Of a stretch of DNA of 64,000 nt, positions 32,962 through 41,137 are shown piece after piece; position 1 is the first letter of the stretch, and every line of letters begins with the position of its first letter. The translations under genes and the position numbers were made by a program. The notes under the pieces are model-generated. The model made no database searches, was not told the DNA's origin, and worked only from the letters and a program-made list of their open reading frames with translations. Source of the DNA: Candidatus Poribacteria bacterium (GTDB lineage Bacteria > Poribacteria > WGA-4E > PCPOR2b); the NCBI GenBank assembly GCA_965218095.1, contig OZ244587.1:640001-704000 (forward strand). Reading direction: 5' to 3'.

Positions 32962-34077
32962 ATGGCGAAACAACAACCAGAAGAAATGATGACGCTCAAA
33001 CGGGCTCTCACCGCACGGACTCAAGAAGGGTTTCTGTACGAAAAACTGCCCGACAAAGTAGATTGGGTGCACTGCTACGCATGTGGTCACAACTGCAAAA
33101 TCCCTCCGGGCAGAGACGGTATCTGTCACGTGCGGTTTAACGAAAGGGGCAAGCTCTATGTTCCGTGGGGCTATGTCGGTGCGTTGCAGCTCGATCCTAT
33201 TGAGAAGAAGCCGTTCTTCCACGCATTTCCCGGTGCCTTGGCGATGAGCTTCGGGATGTTAGGTTGCGATTATCACTGCTCTTACTGCCAGAATTGGATA
33301 ACCTCGCAGGCACTTCGCGACAGAAATGCAGGGGCACCGGTGAAAGATCTTTCACCGGAAGCATTTGTCTCGCTTGCGTGTCAACACAACGCCCAGATTG
33401 TCACGAGCACGTACAATGAGCCGCTGATTACGAGCGAATGGGCGATTGATATTTTCAAGGAGGCGAAAAAGCATGGGCTCGTCACATCCTATGTGTCCAA
33501 CGGAAATGCCACGCCCAAAGTCCTTGACGCCCTCGGTCCGTGGGTCGATCTGTACAAGGTGGACCTCAAGGGCTTCAACGACAAAAATTACCGCAAGCTC
33601 GGCGGCGTACTAAAGCACGTCCTCGACACAATTAAGATGTTGTCTGAACGCAATTTCTGGGTCGAGATTGTCACGCTTATCGTTCCTGGCTTCAACGACT
33701 CCGATGAAGAACTTAAAGACATCGCCAACTTCCTCGTGTCTATCTCACCGGATATCCCCTGGCATGTGACGGCCTTCCATCAAGACTATAAGATGACCGA
33801 GCCGGATAACACCGCTGTCTCCACGCTTATCCATGCGGCGGAAATCGGCTACAACGCCGGACTGCATTATGTGTACGCCGGCAACCGCCCCGGTTATGTC
33901 AGACGCTACGAAAACACCTACTGCCCAGGTTGCGGCGAACTCCTCATTGAACGATGGGGATTCAGGGTACTGAAGCACCGGGTGAAAGCTGGTAGCTGTC
34001 CGAAATGTAAAACGACAATCGCTGGCGTTTGGAGTGGAAAGGAATTAGAGACGATGCGAGCGATGAAAGAAAAATGA
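32962..34077 (+). CDS. amrS: AmmeMemoRadiSam system radical SAM enzyme
   Basis: N-terminal CxxCxxxC, DPIEKKPFFH, GCDYHCSYCQNW, TYNEP, C-terminal CPGC...CPKC. Confidence 0.9.
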   Translation: MAKQQPEEMMTLKRALTARTQEGFLYEKLPDKVDWVHCYACGHNCKIPPGRDGICHVRFNERGKLYVPWGYVGALQLDPIEKKPFFHAFPGALAMSFGMLGCDYHCSYCQNWITSQALRDRNAGAPVKDLSPEAFVSLACQHNAQIVTSTYNEPLITSEWAIDIFKEAKKHGLVTSYVSNGNATPKVLDALGPWVDLYKVDLKGFNDKNYRKLGGVLKHVLDTIKMLSERNFWVEIVTLIVPGFNDSDEELKDIANFLVSISPDIPWHVTAFHQDYKMTEPDNTAVSTLIHAAEIGYNAGLHYVYAGNRPGYVRRYENTYCPGCGELLIERWGFRVLKHRVKAGSCPKCKTTIAGVWSGKELETMRAMKEK

Positions 34078-34553
34078 AATCTGTGGAGAAGTTAATGAGT
34101 TTCAAACGTCGTTTACTGATTCTGTCTTGCTCAGAACGTAAACACACTTCAAAAGAATTGCTACCAGCCATAGAACGATACAATGGGCCGGTATTTTTTC
34201 TGCTGCGCCGTTTTCTTCGTGATTGTCCAGATAAAGCGGAATCATTGGATGTGTACATTTTGTCTGCCGCTTACGGGCTAATTCCAGCAAGCCATCCAAT
34301 TGCTCCTTATGACCAAAAGATGATCAAATATCGGGCGTCTGAATTACAGCCACATGTTTTAGCGACTTTTGGTGGACTTATGCAGAACAATTATACGTCT
34401 CTCTGTCTAGTGATGGGGAAAGCCTACTTGGCTGCATTGGAAGGTTGGCGGGAATTGGTGCCAACGAATCTTGCATTGATGGTAGCGAAAGGGCCGATGG
34501 GAGTGAAACAGGCTCAATTGAAAAATTGGCTAGAGGAATTGACAACAAATTAG
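34074..34553 (+). CDS. DUF6884/YaaA-like protein
   Basis: LLILSCSERK, PAIERYNGP, YILSAAYGLI, YDQKM; ATGA overlap with the amrS stop. Confidence 0.75.
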   Translation: MKSVEKLMSFKRRLLILSCSERKHTSKELLPAIERYNGPVFFLLRRFLRDCPDKAESLDVYILSAAYGLIPASHPIAPYDQKMIKYRASELQPHVLATFGGLMQNNYTSLCLVMGKAYLAALEGWRELVPTNLALMVAKGPMGVKQAQLKNWLEELTTN

Positions 34554-34564
34554 GGAGATAACAT

Positions 34565-34921
34565 ATGCTCGTTGAAGTGCTTAAACTCGGAACCACCGAA
34601 GAAGGCAATATTCCACTAATCGTAGATCAAATCGAAATAGTAGAGATTGATACTTCGTCTGTTGAACCTGTGAATAAGCAAGTAGATAGTCCGATCACAA
34701 TCGCTGAATTGGCGGATTTGCTAACTCAGATTAAGCCTATTAAGCCGCTGGACTTAGAAGAGCTAGATACCTATCATGCGCGGGACATTGAAGTGTGGCG
34801 GGATGGCAATCTATTTCCAGAGAAGATTGATTTTCCTCACTATATTGGACTACATGTTCTGTTGAGAAGTATACTACAGAAGTATAGTACGGTTGACAAT
34901 CTGCAAATTCAAATCAGCTGA
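34565..34921 (+). CDS. Hypothetical acidic protein
   Basis: ORF tightly packed in the operon, GGAG RBS; no motif recognised. Confidence 0.7.
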   Translation: MLVEVLKLGTTEEGNIPLIVDQIEIVEIDTSSVEPVNKQVDSPITIAELADLLTQIKPIKPLDLEELDTYHARDIEVWRDGNLFPEKIDFPHYIGLHVLLRSILQKYSTVDNLQIQIS

Positions 34922-34929
34922 GGTTTCTG

Positions 34930-36045
34930 ATGCCCATTTTTTCCCTTGATAAATTCAAGTGCTCGGCTTTTGGTAAGTTTGATGCGGGAACTTGGACCGT
35001 AGCATATCATGACCGAAGTCATCTACCAAGAGATACCTACGTCTCGCTTGGAACAATTGAAGTTGAAGAATATACACAAAAAGGAGATTCTTTCTTCTAC
35101 TTTTGCCCCAACTCTTGTCAGCAGATTAAGTGTTTTATTGCTGATGCTTGGTGTAAAGGCAACGTTACTGGGCAAAAAGACCCAAAAGATACCGCCAAGA
35201 TTATTCTCGATCAGCTAAGTGAATCCATGGTGAGGTTAGGTCTTGTTCAGCCTAATTTTGAAATAGACGCACAAAATTTCATTACCGAGCGCAAGTTTGC
35301 AATCGTTGTATTAGATACAAACGCACTACGTGACGGTGCGATTCGTCATCTAAAGGAACAACTCGACAATGTACAATTGTGGACGATTATTCCGACAGTT
35401 GCCCTGATGGAGATTGGTGAGCGAATCGCCTATATAACCAGTAAAGACAAAGAGGGATGTAAACGTCAAAACAGTAGACTCATCCGTTTTCGACCTCAAG
35501 TCACAATCGCGCCCCAAGAAGTGAAGTGGATTCAAGAAAACTTCCCGACGGAAACTTTGGAACTTGCCCCAGAATTATTACGAACCTTTAGAGGATATGA
35601 CACAAGAAGAGAAAGCGAACCTGACAGAGTTTCCATTAATGACCGGCTCATCTTAGAAGGTATCAAAGATTTGCGACGGCAACGCAGTCTCCTAGAAGGA
35701 ATCTATCTAATGTCGAACGACAAGGATGTATCGCGGTTAGCTAGACTTGAAGGAATTAACACAATCTATCCTGCGATACCTGATATTCACGGGCTTTGCG
35801 ATCGCATCTATTCCCTTCGATATTCACTTGAAGTGCGCACCTACATTTCGTGTTCAATCCATCGCTTTCTTTGGGACTTGACACATGTTTTCAGCCAAAT
35901 CAAAGTGCAATCTACATCAGGATCGCAAGAGGGACAAGAATTGAAACTTTCTTATTATTATCCTGCTAAGTTGGTGAATGCTTGGATTGATGATAAGTTG
36001 GAGGTGACAGACCTTGGATCCAATTCTACCACCGACACTATTTGA
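34930..36045 (+). CDS. PIN-domain nuclease with N- and C-terminal extensions
   Basis: VVLDTNAL, IPTVALMEI, NDRLILE, LMSNDKDVSRLARLEGI (full PIN acidic set). Confidence 0.8.
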   Translation: MPIFSLDKFKCSAFGKFDAGTWTVAYHDRSHLPRDTYVSLGTIEVEEYTQKGDSFFYFCPNSCQQIKCFIADAWCKGNVTGQKDPKDTAKIILDQLSESMVRLGLVQPNFEIDAQNFITERKFAIVVLDTNALRDGAIRHLKEQLDNVQLWTIIPTVALMEIGERIAYITSKDKEGCKRQNSRLIRFRPQVTIAPQEVKWIQENFPTETLELAPELLRTFRGYDTRRESEPDRVSINDRLILEGIKDLRRQRSLLEGIYLMSNDKDVSRLARLEGINTIYPAIPDIHGLCDRIYSLRYSLEVRTYISCSIHRFLWDLTHVFSQIKVQSTSGSQEGQELKLSYYYPAKLVNAWIDDKLEVTDLGSNSTTDTI

Positions 36046-36862
36046 TATACTGGATCTGTTAGCAAGTAGGTCCGGTCCCATTACGCTTGACACTTTGAAC
36101 AGAAAGCGGTGGGTTACAAGAAAGCGCTTTGCCGAAATTGGACGAGTATTAGAAGCATTTCGGGTCGCATGCCGTGAGCAAGAATCGCTCCTACCGGATA
36201 CTGATCTAAAAGCATTCATCACGTGTTGGGAAGCCGCGGATTTAGACGGTGTCAATGATTTCTTCCATCGCTATCGGCCCTACAAGACCTTTTTGAGTTT
36301 CTTAAGAACAGAACAATATATTTATGTACCTCCCAAGAATGATATTGAGGCACGTCGCAGACTTAGCATTCAATTAGAGAATAGTAAAACCGGACCTAAT
36401 ATTGTTGCAATTGACACCTTCAAGTGGTGGGGGTTGGCTGTTGGGCAGGTATATTACGTTTTAAGCGCCGGAGGGCAGGACATTTACTGGGCCGGTGAAA
36501 AACTAAGTCTTGATGTCTTTGAAGAAAGCCTGCTTCGCTGTTACGCGAAAATTCGCCCCCTGGATGGATTTGTAAATATTGGAAAACTTGCTGATAAGGT
36601 TTGTCGTGAACTGCATATTGGGTTTATTGAATTTGAACGCCTCTTTGTTCAGCTGTGTCGAAAACGCCACGGCCACTACCGATTATCAACTTCTCTCGTT
36701 CGTCCTCCAGCGAGTAAGTCTCTAGTTCAAACACTTTTGCCACGATCAGTTGCCAAAAAACTCGCTTTGCAGCAAGGGGGTCCCATTGAATGGACGGACA
36801 AACGGTTGATGGAAGATGGAATAATTATTGGTGGACGGAGTGTGAAAATGATCAAAATTTAG
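36014..36862 (+). CDS. Hypothetical basic protein
   Basis: 282-aa ORF overlapping the PIN gene; GGAGG RBS before the TTG start. Confidence 0.7.
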   Translation: MDPILPPTLFDILDLLASRSGPITLDTLNRKRWVTRKRFAEIGRVLEAFRVACREQESLLPDTDLKAFITCWEAADLDGVNDFFHRYRPYKTFLSFLRTEQYIYVPPKNDIEARRRLSIQLENSKTGPNIVAIDTFKWWGLAVGQVYYVLSAGGQDIYWAGEKLSLDVFEESLLRCYAKIRPLDGFVNIGKLADKVCRELHIGFIEFERLFVQLCRKRHGHYRLSTSLVRPPASKSLVQTLLPRSVAKKLALQQGGPIEWTDKRLMEDGIIIGGRSVKMIKI

Positions 36863-36877
36863 ACGGAGGAGATTACA

Positions 36878-38077
36878 ATGAGTGATTTCAAGGATGACCT
36901 GACCTTAGACGATTTGCGTAAGGAAATTGGCAAAGGACAGCCTAAAAACCCATATGTCAATTTTTTTCTGTTATCCAATCCTTTCCCTGATGTTGGTCAG
37001 TTTATTCCAAGCATCTGTGTTAATCAGGACGAGATTAAACGAGAATTTGTGCGAACCCTCCGGGAATTTTATCAGGACGAACAATCAAGACGGCTGATGA
37101 TTCTTGGCAGCACAGGGGCAGGCAAAACTAACTTGTTGAAATTCTTTAAGCAAGAGCTTGAAGAATGGCACCAACCTGCTCCAGGAAAGCAAGCAATCAC
37201 AGATCTATTTACAATCTTTGTTGATCAACCTCAAGGAGGATATTTTGAAGTACATCGCAAAATAATCAGCGAATTAGCTACTATGTTTTTTACACGATTC
37301 TTCGAGGCTGTGCAATGCGGCAAGGTTAGTCTGACCAAACTTCCTACTGAAATTTCCGGGATTAGTCCGGAATTAATTCGTATTTTAGACTCAATGGCTT
37401 CAAATGGCTCTCACCAACTCTCGCTATGGCCAGAACCGAGGTCCCTCCGAACATTGGAGGAATGGTTACAGGGCACCAAACTCTCCGCCGCAGAAAAAAA
37501 ACAACTCGGTGGTGTGAGTGTCGAAGTTGGAAAATCCTCTACGATTGCTATCAAATTTCTTGTGGACCTTGTCAAGATTTTCAGATATGCAGAGCTGTTC
37601 AGGGGATTGATCGTACTGTTTGACGAGTTTGAAAATATTCTGTCAGGGTTATCACTAACTCGTCAGGTTCAGTATGCCCAAGATTTGAGAAACTTGTTCG
37701 ATAGTCTCGCTGATAGTGTTGTATTTGTCATTGGCACAGCTCCGGTTTCAAGTAATCTACAGCGAATCTCGCCCGCTTTGTATCGCCGATTGGGCGAAGG
37801 TGTTCCAGTTGAACCTATTCAAGACGAGAAGGCTGCTTTAGCGTATGCCCGGGCGTATACTCAATTGGGTCGGGAGGCTTTTAAGAATGAGACAAAGTGT
37901 AAGATTGACCTGCCGGCAGATTGTCCTGATGTGGATCGCCCGTATTATCCACTCACGTGTGCTACAATTACAAACGTTTACCAAGAAATCAGGGATAGGT
38001 ATTCCGATGTTCTTCCCGGGGATCTTCTCCCGGAATTAAGCCGCAGGTTTTATCAGCGAGTGTATGAAGGAAATTAG
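36878..38077 (+). CDS. P-loop AAA+ ATPase, BrxD/DUF2791-like
   Basis: NPFP, Walker A GSTGAGKT, WLQG, Walker B LIVLFDEFE, PALYRRL arginine finger. Confidence 0.8.
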   Translation: MSDFKDDLTLDDLRKEIGKGQPKNPYVNFFLLSNPFPDVGQFIPSICVNQDEIKREFVRTLREFYQDEQSRRLMILGSTGAGKTNLLKFFKQELEEWHQPAPGKQAITDLFTIFVDQPQGGYFEVHRKIISELATMFFTRFFEAVQCGKVSLTKLPTEISGISPELIRILDSMASNGSHQLSLWPEPRSLRTLEEWLQGTKLSAAEKKQLGGVSVEVGKSSTIAIKFLVDLVKIFRYAELFRGLIVLFDEFENILSGLSLTRQVQYAQDLRNLFDSLADSVVFVIGTAPVSSNLQRISPALYRRLGEGVPVEPIQDEKAALAYARAYTQLGREAFKNETKCKIDLPADCPDVDRPYYPLTCATITNVYQEIRDRYSDVLPGDLLPELSRRFYQRVYEGN

Positions 38078-38079
38078 GC

Positions 38080-39261
38080 ATGTCATCTCGCACATTGACA
38101 ATCGGCGTATCGCAAGTCGAAACGCCGGCATTGTTTGCTAGCTATCGTATCCGTGATTACCCTCAGGCAGGTCTTCGCTGTCACCCTTGGAAAATCACAG
38201 ATACTCAAGCATTGCTGCTAAACGCTTTTGATCTACTAGCTAACAAACGTACCAAGATGTTTACAGACGAGATCCGAAAGACGAGAGGTAAGCTCCGCAA
38301 GTACGTCGAATTTGACGGTCCGCTGATGCTTGATTCGGGTGCTTTTAATTTCTTACAACACGAGGAGATTAGTATCACCTCACCTGACGTTCTAAAAATC
38401 GGAATTGAATTAGACGTTGATTTATCGGTTGTGTTAGACCACCCATTCTTACCCAAATCAACAGAAGATGAGATACGCACCCGTTGGTCAAATACACGAG
38501 ATAACACACGCACAATGGTTGAAAGGTTAGAACATTGGGAGGGCGATCTCCCCGACGGTTTCCAACTAATGCCTGTCCTCCATGGGCATGATGCAGAAAC
38601 ACTCAAGCGTTCCCTTGATGATATTATCACGATTCTTGGCCAGGATCCCGATATTGTGGGAATTGGAAGTTTAGCCCCGTTGGCTCGCAACGGCAATAAG
38701 CGCACCGTTATTGATGTCATACTCACTATCCGTCAACTGCTACCTAATGCTTATATTCACTGTTTTTCATTGGGTTCGGCACTGCTGATGTTATTGGCTT
38801 TTTACTGTGGAGCTGACACAGTAGATTCACAAACTTGGATTATAAGTGCCGCTTTCAAACAGGTACAATTGCCCGGACTTCACTTAACCCGACTTTCCCC
38901 ACGGGAAAAAGAAAAAGATCCAGTCAAATATGAACAGACTCGAAATGCCTTTGCCCAGCATCTGCTCCAACTCATTGAAAAAGAAGGATTTGCTGTGAAG
39001 AACTGGGACACCGGTAAGGAATGGAAAATTAACAGTGAAGACGATGCCTTGGCTTATATGGACGATCTTGAAGACCGTGATAAAATCAATCACATTCATC
39101 GTCGCGCCTGCCATAACTTGTATGCTTTCAATTTTGAGGCAGGACGAGTCCGTGAACACAAAAACGCTGGTACATTTGAGACGTTCATCCAGGATCGGAT
39201 GATGATCACTATTTATAGAAGAGTATTTGAATATGCTATAAACGAAAGGAATAAAACTTAA
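38080..39261 (+). CDS. Divergent tRNA-guanine transglycosylase family protein (DpdA/arcTGT-like)
   Basis: VETPALF, LMLDSGAF, VLDHP, MPVLHG, IGSLAP, IHCFSLG, GADTVDSQTW, HNL. Confidence 0.85.
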   Translation: MSSRTLTIGVSQVETPALFASYRIRDYPQAGLRCHPWKITDTQALLLNAFDLLANKRTKMFTDEIRKTRGKLRKYVEFDGPLMLDSGAFNFLQHEEISITSPDVLKIGIELDVDLSVVLDHPFLPKSTEDEIRTRWSNTRDNTRTMVERLEHWEGDLPDGFQLMPVLHGHDAETLKRSLDDIITILGQDPDIVGIGSLAPLARNGNKRTVIDVILTIRQLLPNAYIHCFSLGSALLMLLAFYCGADTVDSQTWIISAAFKQVQLPGLHLTRLSPREKEKDPVKYEQTRNAFAQHLLQLIEKEGFAVKNWDTGKEWKINSEDDALAYMDDLEDRDKINHIHRRACHNLYAFNFEAGRVREHKNAGTFETFIQDRMMITIYRRVFEYAINERNKT

Positions 39262-39319
39262 TGGAACATGCTCAACAACTGCTTACCGATAGGAATTCTT
39301 GATAAGAAGGAGTCTGCAG

Positions 39320-39832
39320 ATGGACTTACGTTTTCTTGAATCCGAGATTTGTCAATGGGCTGAAAAATACAAAATTCAACCTTATGAAGCCGAATTGATT
39401 GAGCTCAAATCCAAGGTGGAACAACGTGGCTACCTTGACAAAGAGGAGTTGTTCCGCGTCGCGCGTTGGAAGTCGCCAAGGCGTCCAGATCTCGTGAAAA
39501 AAAACAAAGACGACTACGTAAAAGAAATTACGGGGTGGGCATTTACCGCCACGAATGAACGTTCAAAAATAGAAGTTTTGACCCTGTTGGATGGCATCGG
39601 GGAGCCAACCGCTTCCGCAGTTCTTCATCTATTTCACAAAGATCCTTATCCAATCCTAGATTTTCGTGCGTTGTGGTCTGTGGGGTTGGAAGAATCTGAA
39701 CAATATTCGTTTTCATTCTGGTGGTGTTACGTGTGCTTTTGTCGAGACGTTGCATGTCGCAACCAAGTCGACATGCGAACCTTGGATTGGGCACTCTGGC
39801 AGTACTCAAAATGTAAACAACAAGGGGGTTAA
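39320..39832 (+). CDS. HhH-GPD-like DNA glycosylase-type protein
   Basis: ARWKSPR, HhH LDGIGEPTASAVL, YPILDFRA, RTLDWALW; AGGAG RBS. Confidence 0.65.
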   Translation: MDLRFLESEICQWAEKYKIQPYEAELIELKSKVEQRGYLDKEELFRVARWKSPRRPDLVKKNKDDYVKEITGWAFTATNERSKIEVLTLLDGIGEPTASAVLHLFHKDPYPILDFRALWSVGLEESEQYSFSFWWCYVCFCRDVACRNQVDMRTLDWALWQYSKCKQQGG

Positions 39833-39877: not shown

Positions 39878-41137
39878 GTGATAACAAAGACCTTCCCAAA
39901 ACGAACACTCCTCGCAGCACTTTCGATTGCCTTGGCAGGCAGCTTTTTGCTGTGCGGCTACGAGTTTATTCGGGCGGTATCAACCTCTTTGTTCATTGAT
40001 GCGTACGGTGCTAAAAACTTGCCTCGGGTGATGGTAGCGGTGCCGCTTGGCGTCTTCTTACTGCTTTATCTCTACGGTAGGCTGCTGTCGTGGTTGGGTG
40101 CGAAACGTGCGTTATTGTTGACGTCAATTTTGTCTGCGGCCCTGATTGCAGGCTGCTACAATCTGATTATCATGGGCTATGCTATCGCGGTGGCAGTGGC
40201 CTATGTTTTCCGTGAAGCATATATTGTGTTAATTATCGAACAATATTGGTCGCTTATCAATAGCACATTAAATCCGAAGCAGGCGCGTTGGATTAATGGA
40301 CCTTTTTGCGCGGTTGCGACGATTGGCTCAGTTACCGGCGGTTCCCTTGTTGCGTACCTCGCTCCATCTTTGGGTTCTGAGGTGTTGCTGCTATTCGTAG
40401 CAGGTTCGCTACTGCCCGCGGCATTGTTTGCGATGTTCGCTTATGCTGCCGCCGGTGAGCCTCAACCCGCAGCCACAGAGCAAGGCGGACGACAGGGACA
40501 TACAGGGTTGAAGGTACTTGCACGTTCCCGCTATCTAATTTTCCTATTCCTGCTCATCCTGACGACACAGGTTGTTTCGACGGTATTAGACCTACGATTT
40601 AATGGATTGGTCGAAACTGCTATTGTTGACAAAGATATGCGAACCGCCTTCTATGGGCGATTTTATGGGCAGTGGCTTGGTATCTCTGCTTTTGTTCTGC
40701 AACTCTGTGCGGGTTTTGTGTTGCGATTCATACCAATTCGCATCCTACATCCGGGCATTCCGCTGGTTCATCTGATTGCGGGTGCGGTGCTGACTGTAGC
40801 ACCTTCCCTGAGGAGTGGTGCGACCGCATTTCTGCTTTTCAAGACATTGGACTATTCGCTTTTCCGAGCGGCAAAAGAGATGCTTTATATTCCTTTATCG
40901 TTCGATGCCCGCTATCGGGCGAAACAGGTCATTGATTCTTTCGGTTATCGATTTGCTAAAGGTGGTAGTGCCGGCGTGATTACCGTAATCGGCTTTGTTA
41001 TGGCAATTCCGGGTGCCGCATATTCTATTACCGCGATGGTGATGGCAATCCTCTGGTCAGGGATTGTGCCGAACTTGACAAAGCAGTACCAAAATCTGGG
41101 GACACGCAATGATGGGAGAGAAGATATAGATGAATAA
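39878..41137 (+). CDS. Npt1/TLC-family (ATP/ADP translocase-like) MFS nucleotide transporter
   Basis: About 12 TM helices; QYWSLIN..LNPKQAR, DYSLFRAAKEMLYIPL..DARYRAK..ID..GYRFAKGG. Confidence 0.75.
   Translation: MITKTFPKRTLLAALSIALAGSFLLCGYEFIRAVSTSLFIDAYGAKNLPRVMVAVPLGVFLLLYLYGRLLSWLGAKRALLLTSILSAALIAGCYNLIIMGYAIAVAVAYVFREAYIVLIIEQYWSLINSTLNPKQARWINGPFCAVATIGSVTGGSLVAYLAPSLGSEVLLLFVAGSLLPAALFAMFAYAAAGEPQPAATEQGGRQGHTGLKVLARSRYLIFLFLLILTTQVVSTVLDLRFNGLVETAIVDKDMRTAFYGRFYGQWLGISAFVLQLCAGFVLRFIPIRILHPGIPLVHLIAGAVLTVAPSLRSGATAFLLFKTLDYSLFRAAKEMLYIPLSFDARYRAKQVIDSFGYRFAKGGSAGVITVIGFVMAIPGAAYSITAMVMAILWSGIVPNLTKQYQNLGTRNDGREDIDE

What the first reader, a model, noticed from the sequence alone, without database searches (positions are those of the whole stretch)
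34074..39832. Candidate novel guanine base-exchange/defence system: DUF6884 - unknown - PIN - unknown - AAA+ ATPase - TGT-like - HhH glycosylase-like
Seen: seven co-oriented genes, six of them overlapping or separated by 15 bp or less, visibly AT-richer than the flanks and sitting between ordinary genes. Known: TGT paralogs (DpdA) insert 7-deazaguanines into DNA, and PIN nucleases and BrxD-like ATPases are common defence components. The set does not match canonical Dpd (no DpdB/C, helicases or QueCDE seen) or BREX (no PglZ/PglX). Inference: the TGT-like and DUF6884 proteins modify or sense guanine in nucleic acid, and the ATPase, PIN and two unknown proteins form the restriction or abortive effector.
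Basis: partly seen in the sequence, partly recalled or inferred. Interest (0 to 1): 0.9.

Follow-up and report, generated by a model that had tools for sequence, protein, structure and literature searches.

The report
New compact Dpd-like guanine-exchange defence cassette
A six-gene mobile cassette pairs a guanine-swapping enzyme and a DpdC-like partner with a nuclease, a DNA-binding protein and an ATPase, and it looks like an undescribed relative of the bacterial system that marks its own DNA with 7-deazaguanine to tell it from phage DNA.

Summary
In detail: seven co-oriented ORFs lie at 34074-39832, AT-richer than the flanks. Only six form a conserved unit: DUF6884, small acidic protein, PIN nuclease, tandem winged-helix protein, BrxD-like ORC/Cdc6 AAA+ ATPase, TGT-family transglycosylase. 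Of 36 TGT-anchored loci in other genomes, 23 hold g1 and g3-g6, 20 of them in the window's order. In 176 genomes of the phylum, the winged-helix gene and the TGT co-occur in 17 and are adjacent in 16. The seventh gene was found in 0 of 36 loci.

A plasmid protein annotated DpdA is a DUF6884+TGT fusion. The DUF6884+TGT pair also sits with NurA-HerA, a helicase-PLD protein or SNF2/MmeI-like genes.

My reading, at about 0.55: a Dpd-like modification-restriction system. TGT and DUF6884 write a 7-deazaguanine mark in DNA; the PIN, winged-helix and ATPase proteins restrict unmarked DNA. The cassette fails membership of canonical Dpd, BREX, BRC and PADLOC PDC-M57. My eight literature searches found no description of it. 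I rate it a new variant of a known kind. No biochemistry exists.

The parts
34074..34553 (+). g1: DUF6884 protein (159 aa), DpdC/YaaA superfamily. Proposed enzyme acting on the base that g6 inserts in DNA.
   Evidence: Pfam DUF6884 4.4e-10, weak YaaA hit. PADLOC PDC-M57A 1.9e-9 and DpdC 1.4e-3. Of 24 relatives, 24 hit PDC-M57A and 14 hit DpdC. C19, K23, S64 and A65 are invariant in 24 sequences; these are the CxxxK and LSAxxG motifs that PMC11701544 describes for DUF6884. tblastn finds it in 32 of 36 loci.
34565..34921 (+). g2: small acidic protein (118 aa, pI 4.4), no known family. Proposed regulator or inhibitor of the PIN nuclease (inference only).
   Evidence: No hit in Pfam, NCBIfam, PADLOC or PHROGs. 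Homologues in 5 of 36 genome loci and in L062 and L090. In 13 other loci the same slot holds a different acidic ORF of about 145 aa. All 6 g2A and all 13 g2B proteins have pI 4.2-5.1. The only detectable similarity between the two types is at the C-terminus (hhalign E 0.025, probability 2%).
34930..36045 (+). g3: PIN-domain nuclease (371 aa) with uncharacterised N-terminal (about 1-112) and C-terminal (about 283-361) domains. Proposed effector nuclease.
   Evidence: Pfam PIN_4 4.1e-5, residues 126-278. D129, E161, D238 and D264 are invariant in 20 sequences. AlphaFold model pLDDT 84.3, pTM 0.85. Foldseek hits are PIN proteins: 5f4h 1.6e-4, 3i8o 2.6e-4, 9jxx 3.4e-4, then Nmd4 and SMG6. tblastn finds it in 26 of 36 loci.
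36014..36862 (+). g4: protein of tandem winged-helix-like domains (282 aa), an orphan family. Proposed DNA-binding or adaptor subunit.
   Evidence: No family hit for the window's protein. Nothing consistent in 22 relatives against Pfam or PADLOC. Model pLDDT 85.7, pTM 0.83. Foldseek gave no hit at E<=1e-3; the best partial hits are winged-helix proteins such as IclR, the SelB C-terminus, ScpB and RPC62. The family has 301 clusters, and none of the best 120 carries a Pfam domain. Found in 25 of 36 loci.
36878..38077 (+). g5: stand-alone ORC/Cdc6-type AAA+ ATPase, BrxD-like (399 aa).
   Evidence: Pfam BrxC_BrxD 2.8e-7, TniB and ORC-CDC6-like. PADLOC BrxD in 18 of 20 relatives (best 9.6e-11), mad8 in 11 of 20, DpdH in 2 of 20. 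NCBIfam BrxD scores 24.9 bits against a cut-off of 350. Walker A (G77, A81, G82, K83, T84) and Walker B (D249, E250) are invariant. Found in 28 of 36 loci.
38080..39261 (+). g6: TGT-superfamily transglycosylase (393 aa), a subfamily of its own. Proposed DNA guanine-exchange enzyme.
   Evidence: Pfam TGT 1.1e-17, DpdA 1.1e-3. NCBIfam TgtA 72 bits (cut-off 350) and DpdA 23 bits (cut-off 200). The best solved relative is archaeosine TGT 1iq8, 4.2e-13, with D85 and D249 aligned to its DSG and DxFDS Asp positions. The protein has only four Cys and no CxCxxC. The family has 399 clusters at E<=1e-3. No tblastn hit in 50,697 phage records.
39320..39832 (+). g7: adjacent gene that is NOT part of the conserved cassette. 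It belongs to a widespread family of about 169-aa proteins of unknown function.
   Evidence: Found in 0 of 36 loci. The family has 1132 clusters, none with a Pfam domain in the best 120. An Atlas lead points to OGG/HHH clusters only. One metagenome contig joins 34067 to 39261, which removes g1-g6 and keeps g7; only 22 letters lie on the short side, so this is weak.

Best explanation
g1-g6 (34074-39261) form one horizontally mobile cassette that encodes a Dpd-like modification-restriction defence system of a new architecture.

Modification half (inferred): the TGT-family enzyme g6 exchanges guanine in the cell's own DNA for a 7-deazaguanine base. The likeliest base is preQ0, which the host's queuosine pathway makes. 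The DUF6884 protein g1 is a distant DpdC relative with a conserved Cys-x3-Lys motif. It would convert that base on the DNA, as DpdC turns preQ0 into the 7-amido form.

Restriction half (inferred): the BrxD-like ORC/Cdc6 AAA+ ATPase g5 and the tandem winged-helix protein g4 would load on or scan DNA. They would direct the PIN nuclease g3 to DNA that lacks the mark. The small acidic protein g2 may keep g3 in check.

Shown: gene content, conserved catalytic motifs, obligate co-occurrence, mobility, and linkage of DUF6884 with TGT.

Not shown: the substrate (DNA or RNA), the base inserted, the protein complexes, and any phage protection.
For: (1) Fixed cassette.
- Of 36 loci fetched by TGT similarity, 23 hold g1, g3, g4, g5 and g6, and 20 of them keep the window's order and strand.
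- By their record titles these loci come from Poribacteria, Latescibacterota, Anaerolineae/Chloroflexia and Blastocatellia/Pyrinomonadaceae.
- Anchoring on g4 instead gives the same picture. Three of 4 metagenome loci hold g1 and g3-g6; the fourth is a 1.4-kb contig.
- In 176 genomes of the phylum, g4 is in 20 and the g6-type TGT in 18. Both are in 17 and adjacent in 16.
- The exceptions are decayed or split cassettes (G030, G067, G097) or contig ends (G031, G146).

(2) DUF6884 and TGT are linked independently of the effector genes.
- Eight of the 36 loci lack g3-g5 but keep g1 and g6. In two of them g1 and g6 flank other defence-type genes, a weak NurA hit plus HerA in L032 and a 1804-aa DEAD/MZB/PLD protein in L033.
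- In other loci g1 and g6 lie adjacent, with HerA or SNF2 and MmeI-like genes beside them.
- The same genome holds a second DUF6884-NurA-HerA-TGT operon.
- A cyanobacterial plasmid protein annotated DpdA is a DUF6884+TGT fusion, in a cluster with QueD, DndB, a DEAD helicase and a PLD gene.

(3) Relation to Dpd.
- DpdC matches Pfam DUF6884 (PMC12235509, passages read).
- Of 24 g1 relatives, 14 hit a PADLOC DpdC model, and DpdC is the only named family they hit.
- DpdA inserts preQ0 in DNA and DpdC converts it to the amido form (PMC10164549, abstract and passages read).

(4) Catalytic residues are conserved.
- g6: D85 and D249.
- g1: C19 and K23.
- g3: D129, E161, D238 and D264.
- g5: Walker A and Walker B.

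(5) The precursor is available. The genome has QueC at 263 bits, QueD, QueF and a canonical Tgt at 551 bits.

(6) Mobility.
- GC is lower than in the flanks.
- The distribution is patchy: 10 of 31 genera.
- The flanking genes are 34 bp to about 2.1 kb apart in relatives that lack the cassette.
- Effector subtypes A and B, about 30% identical, interleave on the TGT tree, where TGTs are 60-76% identical.
Against: - There is no experimental datum on any member.
- g6 is not a DpdA by the family's own tests. It scores 22-23 bits against a cut-off of 200, and it lacks the CxCx2Cx22H zinc motif that PMC10164549 says is conserved in DpdA. Its best matches are archaeal tRNA enzymes, so an RNA substrate is not excluded.
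- The cassette has no DpdB-like or ParB-like ATPase. Whether g6 needs g5 for insertion is unknown.
- PIN domains are more often RNases or structure-specific nucleases than restriction endonucleases (established knowledge of the family).
- The similarity of g1 to DpdC models is weak: 1.4e-3 for the window's protein and 1.5e-5 at best in the family.
- No preQ0-synthesis gene lies inside the cassette.
- The tree is a FastTree run whose support values I did not inspect.
Confidence: 0.55

Rival explanations
1. Modification-dependent (type IV-like) defence. The TGT does not mark self DNA. Instead it recognises guanine derivatives in phage DNA, such as 7-deazaguanines, and removes or exchanges them. 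That would leave abasic or covalently trapped sites, which the DUF6884 protein binds and the PIN nuclease cuts with help from the ATPase.
For: - Phage DNA with 7-deazaguanines is a proven target of defence glycosylases (bioRxiv 10.1101/2025.10.29.685425, passages read).
- A DUF6884 member, YfjM, was reported among proteins that bind abasic and RNA-base lesions (PMC11701544, passages read).
- TGT chemistry passes through a covalent enzyme-ribose intermediate (PMC5699537, passage read).
- No preQ0-synthesis genes lie in the cassette.
Against: - The only characterised TGT+DUF6884-family pair, DpdA and DpdC, writes a mark on self DNA (PMC10164549).
- The fusion protein sits in a cluster with QueD, a precursor-synthesis gene.
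- The host makes preQ0.
- No TGT-family enzyme is known to act as a glycosylase in defence. None appeared in my searches.
Confidence: 0.15
2. RNA-directed system. g6 exchanges a base in tRNA or another RNA, as its nearest solved relative archaeosine TGT does. The PIN domain acts as an RNase, so the cassette works as an abortive-infection or toxin-antitoxin-like module rather than a DNA restriction system.
For: - The best family and structure matches of g6 are tRNA enzymes: TgtA 2.8e-20 and 1iq8 4.2e-13.
- Foldseek relatives of g3 include the RNA-decay PINs SMG6 and Nmd4, and VapC20.
- A small acidic gene directly upstream of a PIN gene resembles a VapB-VapC layout (the resemblance is from general knowledge).
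Against: - g6 has 393 aa, against 582 in the arcTGT chain 1iq8, and its match there ends at chain residue 339. That leaves no room for the tRNA-binding C-terminal/PUA domains of arcTGT (PMC5699537, passage read).
- Every alternative partner module of the DUF6884+TGT pair is DNA-directed: NurA-HerA, a DEAD/PLD protein, SNF2 and an MmeI-like methylase-endonuclease, and a nucleoside 2-deoxyribosyltransferase.
- g4 is built of winged-helix domains and g5 is an ORC/Cdc6-type ATPase.
- The genome already has a canonical Tgt and two TGT+DUF5591 paralogues that could serve tRNA.
Confidence: 0.1
3. Same Dpd-like system, but with the labour divided differently. The AAA+ ATPase g5 and the winged-helix protein g4 belong to the modification machine. 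They would stand in for DpdB, whose ATP hydrolysis DpdA needs. The PIN protein alone, with g2, would be the restriction or back-up effector.
For: - DpdA needs ATP hydrolysis by DpdB to insert preQ0 (PMC10164549, abstract read).
- The cassette has no DpdB, and g5 lies directly upstream of g6 with a 2-base gap.
- The authors of the BRC system propose a similar substitution of DpdB by another NTPase (PMC12839542, passage read).
Against: - DUF6884+TGT pairs occur without any g5-like gene next to them (L037-L041).
- In the sister architectures the ATPase is HerA, paired with a NurA nuclease. That points to an ATPase-nuclease unit.
- g3, g4 and g5 change together between subtypes A and B while g1 and g6 stay similar.
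Confidence: 0.12
4. Not a defence system. It would be a housekeeping or niche-specific DNA repair or epigenetic module that happens to be mobile.
For: - YaaA and DUF6884 relatives have been linked to oxidative stress and DNA lesions (PMC11701544, passages read).
- No phage test exists.
- RNA-library contigs from sponge metatranscriptomes match parts of the cassette at low depth. This is at most a weak hint of constitutive expression.
Against: - The distribution is patchy: 20 of 176 genomes and 10 of 31 genera.
- Decayed copies exist, and one genome carries two subtypes (G171).
- Effector genes diverge fast or are exchanged.
- The pair sits with NurA-HerA, PLD, SNF2 and MmeI-like genes.
- GC is low relative to the flanks.
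All of these are typical of defence islands.
Confidence: 0.05

Closest known systems
Dpd system (dpdA-K; 7-deazaguanine DNA modification-restriction of Salmonella Montevideo and others)
   Same: - A TGT-family transglycosylase sits with a DUF6884/DUF328-family partner (DpdA and DpdC).
- The system is a mobile island.
- Extra NTPase and nuclease genes act as the presumed restriction half.
- It depends on the host's preQ0 supply (PMC10164549, PMC5699537, PMC12235509).
   Different: - The TGT is outside the DpdA family: 22-23 bits against a cut-off of 200, and no CxCx2Cx22H zinc motif.
- There is no DpdB.
- None of the DpdD-K helicases or the PLD is present. Instead there is a PIN nuclease, an orphan winged-helix protein, a BrxD-like AAA+ ATPase and a small acidic protein.
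- The cassette is six genes in 5.2 kb, against up to eleven genes.
BREX type 2 (Pgl) BrxD ATPase, and the BREX-related capture (BRC) system with TGT/GNAT (PMC12839542)
   Same: - g5 is a stand-alone ORC/Cdc6-type AAA+ ATPase, and its best defence-library match is BrxD in 18 of 20 relatives.
- BRC also joins a TGT homologue to BREX-type ATPases, without DpdB or DpdC (passages read).
   Different: - The cassette has no PglZ, PglX, BrxC, BrxHI, HerA, STAND, DUF4007 or GNAT.
- BRC lacks a DpdC-like gene, whereas this cassette has one.
- NCBIfam BrxD scores 24.9 bits against a cut-off of 350.
DUF6884-NurA-HerA-TGT operons (undescribed; found here in the same genome and in L032, with L029 as a partial case)
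   Same: - The same DUF6884 and TGT genes bracket an ATPase-plus-nuclease pair.
- The TGT of L029 nests inside the PIN-type clade.
   Different: The engine is a HerA translocase with a NurA nuclease, in place of the ORC/Cdc6-type AAA+ ATPase, the winged-helix protein and the PIN nuclease. The NurA match is above Pfam's cut-off in L049 (28.6 bits) but below it in L032 (17.7 bits against 21), and the corresponding L029 protein has no Pfam hit. The TGT of the genome's own second system is only 23% identical to g6.
PADLOC candidate system PDC-M57
   Same: Its A component is the best defence-library match of g1: 1.9e-9 for the window's protein, and 24 of 24 relatives hit it.
   Different: Its B component has no match anywhere in the genome. 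None of g2-g6 matches any PDC-M57 model at E<=0.1.
PINA-type PIN + ATPase proteins (5f4h, titled 'Archael RuvB-like Holiday junction helicase') and VapBC toxin-antitoxin pairs
   Same: - The best Foldseek hit of g3 is the chain 5f4h. That this protein joins a PIN domain to an ATPase is my recollection, not a tool result.
- A small acidic gene lies directly upstream of the PIN gene, as in VapB-VapC pairs (the comparison is from general knowledge).
   Different: - Here the PIN and the ATPase are separate genes with a winged-helix protein between them.
- g3 carries extra N- and C-terminal domains.
- g2 has no antitoxin-family hit.

Membership tests
TGT superfamily (Pfam PF01702) | Profile match above the gathering score, and the two catalytic Asp residues | tested here: met
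   64.6 bits against a cut-off of 26.3. D85 and D249 are invariant in 31 sequences. They align with the DSG and DxFDS Asp residues of arcTGT 1iq8.
Bacterial DpdA (NCBIfam NF041059; PMC10164549) | Equivalog score of at least 200 bits | tested here: not met
   23.1 bits and 22.4 bits in the genome search. No match in the genome exceeds the cut-off.
Bacterial DpdA (NCBIfam NF041059; PMC10164549) | Structural zinc site CxCx2Cx22H, stated to be conserved in the DpdA family | tested here: not met
   g6 has only four Cys (C34, C228, C243, C344) and no CxCxxC. Only the His of the motif has a counterpart, H345.
Canonical Dpd system | DpdB, a ParB/DndB-like ATPase next to dpdA | tested here: not met
   No ParB or DndB hit for any of g1-g7 in Pfam, NCBIfam or PADLOC at E<=0.1. 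I did not search the rest of the genome for DpdB.
Canonical Dpd system | DpdC (DUF328/DUF6884 family) next to dpdA | tested here: met
   Met at superfamily level only. Pfam DUF6884 4.4e-10. PADLOC DpdC 1.4e-3 for g1, and 14 of 24 relatives hit it with a best E of 1.5e-5.
Canonical Dpd system | DpdD-K restriction genes (SNF2 and DEAD helicases, PLD nuclease, DpdG/H) | tested here: not met
   No helicase or PLD in the cassette. DpdH models hit only 2 of 20 g5 relatives. The DpdG lead rested on an Atlas score of 0.81 at rank 29. It was not borne out: none of the best 120 of 301 g4 relatives carries any Pfam domain.
Canonical Dpd system | dPreQ0 or dADG present in genomic DNA | not testable with these tools
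   This needs LC-MS of DNA nucleosides.
Archaeosine tRNA-guanine transglycosylase (TIGR00432) | Equivalog score of at least 350 bits, and C-terminal tRNA-binding domains | tested here: not met
   72.2 bits. g6 has 393 aa against 582 in 1iq8, and its match ends at chain residue 339.
BREX (any type) | PglZ together with a PglX/BrxX methyltransferase and BrxC | tested here: not met
   None of these is among the hits of g1-g7. BrxD-like similarity of g5 is the only link: 24.9 bits against a cut-off of 350.
BREX-related capture (BRC) system (PMC12839542) | HerA/FtsK translocase, universal in that system, with PglZ, DUF6079, STAND and DUF4007 | tested here: not met
   No such domains in g1-g7.
PADLOC PDC-M57 | Both the A and the B components present | tested here: not met
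   A matches g1. B has no match in the whole genome at E<=0.01.
PIN-domain nucleases (PF13638) | Profile match above the cut-off, and a conserved set of acidic active-site residues | tested here: met
   24.3 bits against a cut-off of 21.9. D129, E161, D238 and D264 are invariant. Foldseek hits to PIN structures at E 1.6e-4 to 4e-3.
HhH-GPD/OGG DNA glycosylases (for g7) | Profile match or fold match, and a catalytic Asp/Lys after the HhH motif | tested here: inconclusive
   No Pfam, NCBIfam or PADLOC hit. No PDB sequence hit. The only support is an Atlas lead to a cluster with OGG in 10% of members, at score 0.90.

The most novel reading that the evidence does not exclude
DUF6884+TGT is a portable 'guanine-exchange' immune module. 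Bacteria plug it into at least four unrelated ATPase-nuclease engines: PIN/winged-helix/ORC-type AAA+, NurA-HerA, a DEAD-PLD protein, and SNF2/MmeI-like genes. In this zinc-motif-less TGT subfamily, the module may write a DNA base other than preQ0 or ADG. Alternatively, it may act on invader DNA directly as a sensor or effector rather than as a self-marker. Either outcome would add a new DNA base-exchange logic to prokaryotic immunity. The lineages involved are mostly uncultured (Poribacteria, Latescibacterota, Chloroflexota, Acidobacteriota).
Probability: 0.2. Interest if true: 0.85.

Novelty: new variant of a known kind. Interest (0 to 1): 0.68.

Why it matters
Dpd is so far the only cellular system known to put 7-deazaguanines into DNA, and how it restricts is still unclear. 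This 5.2-kb cassette has a simpler parts list and hundreds of natural variants: 399 TGT clusters and 301 g4 clusters. That makes it a tractable second example for three questions:
- Which components write the mark.
- Which components read it.
- Whether an ORC/Cdc6-type ATPase can replace DpdB.

It also defines three things not yet in the databases I searched:
- A TGT subfamily outside bDpdA. tblastn found no match to it in 50,697 phage records, where the phage subfamilies DpdA1-4 would lie.
- An orphan winged-helix protein family.
- The rule that DUF6884 travels with DNA-directed TGTs. This rule would improve annotation of DUF6884 and of 'tRNA-guanine transglycosylase' paralogues in defence islands.

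Tried and rejected
- First locus scan: the search for related loci with g6 alone found nothing. The permitted second scan, with alignment A1, gave the 36 loci.
- g4 as DpdG: the Atlas put a DpdG-like cluster at 0.81, rank 29. PF28110 is not in the local Pfam. Twenty-two relatives showed nothing consistent in Pfam or PADLOC. None of the best 120 of 301 relatives carries a precomputed Pfam domain. I rejected this as unsupported.
- g5 as DpdH: only 2 of 20 relatives hit it. Rejected in favour of BrxD-like.
- g2 as a relative of the PIN protein: single-linkage clustering put the roughly 145-aa ORFs with the PIN cluster. blastp and hhalign show no real similarity, so this was a clustering artefact.
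- PDB sequence searches with g4, g7 and profiles of g1, g3 and g5 gave nothing at E<0.1.
- Complex prediction on g5+g4 gave no verdict, with scores 0.02 and 0.00. I do not use it either way.
- Promoter and terminator scans were uninformative: 18 promoter-like sites against 12.6 expected, and 11 terminator-like sites against 8.6.
- The g7 profile found no paralogue in the genome.
- The plasmid ORF next to the fusion gene is not DUF6884.
- RNA evidence: RNA-library contigs from two sponge metatranscriptome runs match parts of g1, g2, g4 and g6 with 0-2 differences at depth 2-4. The tool warns that such libraries can hold DNA, so transcription is not shown. The parts without cover mean nothing.
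- Literature: eight searches found no description of this cassette. Subscription journals are not covered, and the supplements of the Dpd, GATOR-GC, BREX and PADLOC papers were not open to me. Any of these may list such loci.

Full report
WHAT IS THERE. Seven + strand ORFs lie between 34074 and 39832. The first six are packed, with gaps of 11, 8, -32, 15 and 2 bases. g1's ATG overlaps the stop codon of an upstream AmmeMemoRadiSam-type radical-SAM gene. The seventh ORF follows after at least 37 bases. GC is 0.41-0.45 in the cluster and about 0.49-0.53 on both sides.

Family scans gave these results:
- g1: DUF6884 (4.4e-10), with weak YaaA and DpdC hits.
- g2: nothing.
- g3: PIN_4 (4.1e-5).
- g4: nothing.
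- g5: an AAA+ ATPase nearest to BrxD and ORC/Cdc6.
- g6: TGT (1.1e-17). It scores far below the cut-offs for archaeosine TGT (72 against 350 bits) and for DpdA (23 against 200 bits).
- g7: only an uncharacterised PHROG.

IS IT A UNIT? g6 has 399 relatives at E<=1e-3, and the best 120 are at least 62% identical. A pattern scan of one genome per species, using their alignment, returned 36 loci. Their record titles name Poribacteria, Latescibacterota, Anaerolineae/Chloroflexia/Aggregatilineales, Blastocatellia/Pyrinomonadaceae, Saccharibacteria, Planctomycetota and two Bacillota.

tblastn with the window's proteins found:
- g5 in 28 of the 36 loci
- g3 in 26
- g4 in 25
- g1 in 32
- g2 in 5
- g7 in 0
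- neither flanking gene, apart from one partial radical-SAM hit

Twenty-three loci hold g1, g3, g4, g5 and g6, and 20 of them keep the window's order and strand. In three loci g1 lies downstream on the other strand. Several copies are cut by contig ends or are visibly decayed.

In 13 loci the slot of g2 holds a different ORF of about 145 aa. Both kinds are acidic: 6 of 6 g2A and 13 of 13 g2B proteins have pI 4.2-5.1. They share only a weak C-terminal resemblance.

To avoid judging co-occurrence from the TGT side alone, I anchored on g4 as well:
- A metagenome scan gave 4 loci. The three long ones carry g1 and g3-g6, and one of them also carries g2.
- In all 176 genomes held for the phylum, g4 is in 20 (10 of 31 genera) and a g6-type TGT in 18. 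Both are in 17 and adjacent in 16.
- The misfits are a cassette split into two pieces 857 kb apart (G097), two decayed cassettes with TGT remnants (G030, G067), and two contig ends (G031, G146).
- One genome, G171, carries two cassettes.

The g4 family has 301 clusters, a number close to the TGT family's 399. None of its best 120 members carries a Pfam domain.

MOBILITY. The radical-SAM gene and the TLC-type transporter gene that flank the cluster are neighbours throughout the family. They are 34 bp apart in G030 and 286 bp apart in G037. In most genomes they are about 2.1 kb apart with a RecQ-like helicase gene between them. In the window's genome they are 5.8 kb apart. In the closest relative, L006, the cassette is followed by that RecQ-like gene, not by g7. 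One metagenome contig joins 34067 directly to 39261, the exact outer limits of g1-g6. Only 22 letters lie on the short side, so this is a weak hint. Together with the 0 of 36 result, this places g7 outside the unit.

WHAT THE PARTS ARE.

g6. Its profile matches archaeosine TGT 1iq8 at 4.2e-13. D85 and D249 fall on the DSG and DxFDS aspartates, and H345 falls on the His of ALHNL. These residues are invariant in 31 sequences. The protein has four cysteines and no CxCxxC. So the zinc motif CxCx2Cx22H, which PMC10164549 reports as conserved in DpdA, is absent. tblastn finds no match in 50,697 phage records. A cyanobacterial DpdA matches the g6 profile over 177 columns at hhalign probability 94%. 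g6 therefore belongs to the superfamily but not to any named DpdA subfamily that I could test.

g1. It keeps C19 and K23, and S64 and A65, in all 24 sequences. These are the CxxxK and LSAxxG motifs that the Pfam authors describe for DUF6884 (PMC11701544). Some relatives carry an extra C-terminal domain of about 100 aa.

g3. It keeps four acidic residues. Its model (pLDDT 84.3) matches PIN structures. Its N- and C-terminal domains found no match.

g4. It folds with confidence (pLDDT 85.7) into repeated helix-strand units. These resemble winged-helix proteins only piecewise, and there is no Foldseek hit at E<=1e-3.

g5. It keeps Walker A and Walker B. BrxD is its most consistent defence-library match, in 18 of 20 relatives. 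PMC12839542 describes BrxD as a stand-alone ORC/Cdc6 AAA+ ATPase.

WHY DUF6884 AND TGT BELONG TOGETHER. Eight of the 36 loci lack g3-g5 but keep g1 and g6. In two of them other defence-type genes lie between g1 and g6:
- NurA-like plus HerA (L032; the NurA hit is weak, 17.7 bits against Pfam's cut-off of 21)
- a 1804-aa DEAD/MZB/PLD protein (L033)

In the other six, g1 and g6 are adjacent or close, and four of them have such genes beside the pair:
- an unassigned 614-aa protein, HerA and a nucleoside 2-deoxyribosyltransferase (L029)
- SNF2 plus an MmeI-like methylase-endonuclease (L037)
- SNF2 (L039)
- a protein of the same family as L029's 614-aa protein, with no Pfam hit, upstream of the TGT (L041)

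Two PIN-type loci, L009 and L013, carry a NurA-like gene plus HerA in addition. The window's own genome has a second operon, DUF6884-NurA-HerA-TGT, at C1:3554559-3559625. It is inserted between glutamate-synthase-type genes.

A plasmid of Allocoleopsis franciscana (NC_019762.1) encodes a 698-aa protein annotated DpdA. It is a fusion of DUF6884 (residues 44-161, 8.3e-10) and TGT (residues 336-538, 2.8e-12). It lies beside QueD, DndB, a 1672-aa DEAD helicase and a PLD gene.

DpdC itself matches Pfam DUF6884 according to PMC12235509, and DUF328 according to PMC12839542 and PMC5699537. In PADLOC the g1 family hits only PDC-M57A (24 of 24) and DpdC models (14 of 24).

MECHANISM. DpdA inserts preQ0 into DNA and DpdC converts it to the 7-amido base (PMC10164549). 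The host here has QueC, QueD, QueF and a canonical Tgt, so preQ0 is available.

I therefore read g6+g1 as the writing module. The conserved Cys of g1 is a plausible nucleophile for nitrile chemistry; that is my inference.

In the sister operons, the genes between or beside the pair are an ATPase and a nuclease. I therefore read g3, g4 and g5, with g2, as the restriction engine: an ORC/Cdc6-type ATPase, a separate winged-helix DNA binder and a PIN nuclease.

Two facts point to an exchangeable or fast-evolving effector module. First, g3-g5 are only 27-38% identical between the two cassette subtypes, while g6 stays 60-76% identical. Second, the subtypes interleave on a TGT tree (I did not inspect its support values).

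None of this is demonstrated. An RNA substrate, a modification-dependent logic, or a DpdB-like role for g5 remain open, and I list them as rivals.

COMPARISON AND NOVELTY. The cassette fails the tested defining features of:
- bDpdA and canonical Dpd (DpdA score, zinc motif, DpdB, DpdD-K)
- arcTGT
- BREX
- the BRC system
- PADLOC PDC-M57, whose B component is absent from the genome

It works most like Dpd. Eight full-text searches, and passages of PMC12839542, PMC10853773, PMC10164549, PMC5699537, PMC10516641, PMC12235509, PMC11701544, 10.1101/2025.10.29.685425 and 10.64898/2026.04.15.718813, gave no description of it. Supplements and subscription journals were not visible to me.

I rate it a new variant of a known kind, with interest 0.68. 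It is a well-conserved, compact and experimentally approachable second architecture for deazaguanine-type DNA marking. It brings an orphan protein family and a new TGT subfamily, but it rests entirely on comparative inference.

Noticed in passing
own genome C1:3554559-3559625 (- strand), = L049:6560-11626; outside the window: A second DUF6884(256 aa)-NurA(493)-HerA(573)-TGT(344) operon in the same genome. It is inserted between GATase/GXGXG and Glu_synthase genes. Its TGT is only 23% identical to g6.
   Followed up: partly
own genome C1:1272827-1274918 (L050) and C1:287706-289613 (L051); outside the window: Two more TGT paralogues in this bacterial genome are joined to, or followed by, DUF5591, a Pfam domain of unknown function that I recall as part of archaeal ArcS/arcTGT proteins. 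One has a QueD/PTPS-like gene directly upstream. With the canonical Tgt this makes five TGT-family genes in one genome.
   Followed up: partly
window 39320-39832 (+): g7 belongs to a large family: 1132 clusters at E<=1e-3, about 169 aa, about 60% identical across phyla. None of the best 120 carries a Pfam domain. It has an HhH-like GIG/TA motif by eye. An Atlas lead points to a cluster with OGG in 10% of members. Small HhH glycosylases that attack 7-deazaguanine phage DNA were recently described (10.1101/2025.10.29.685425), so its position next to this cassette may deserve its own look.
   Followed up: partly
NC_019762.1:753-2849 (L098): A protein annotated 'tRNA-guanine transglycosylase DpdA' is a DUF6884+TGT fusion of 698 aa. 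It lies in a plasmid cluster with QueD, DndB, a DEAD helicase and a PLD gene.
   Followed up: yes
window 32962-34077 and 39878-41137, and relatives L093-L097: The junction between the radical-SAM gene and the TLC-type transporter gene varies within the family. It holds nothing (34 bp or 286 bp), a RecQ-like helicase gene (about 2.1 kb, most genomes), about 9 kb of other genes (G029), or the cassette plus g7 (this genome).
   Followed up: partly
own genome C1:4119737-4120111 and C1:4862984-4863223; outside the window: Two further short DUF6884-like ORFs, 62% and 42% identical to g1 and about 134 and 96 aa long. My tblastn with g6 found no TGT near either of them. They may be orphans or remnants.
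   Followed up: no
L089 (G030), L090 (G067), L091 and L092 (G097): Decayed or rearranged cassettes. In G030 and G067 the TGT is reduced to fragments. In G097 the cassette is broken inside g5, and its two halves lie 857 kb apart with frameshifts in g3 and g5.
   Followed up: yes
L009:972-1721, L028:2288-3106, L029:4044-4793, L031:3557-4321, L049:10856-11626: Some DUF6884 proteins carry a conserved C-terminal extension of about 100 aa, with a WYV...PKWLVS.LTG.PV...EAR.VL..LG pattern. Pfam does not recognise it.
   Followed up: no
window 34067/39261, run X5: One metagenome contig joins the end of the radical-SAM gene to the end of g6, skipping 5193 bases. In that run the depth on the flanks is several-fold higher than on the cassette. 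This suggests that strains without the cassette coexist with it. Only 22 letters lie on the short side of the joint.
   Followed up: no
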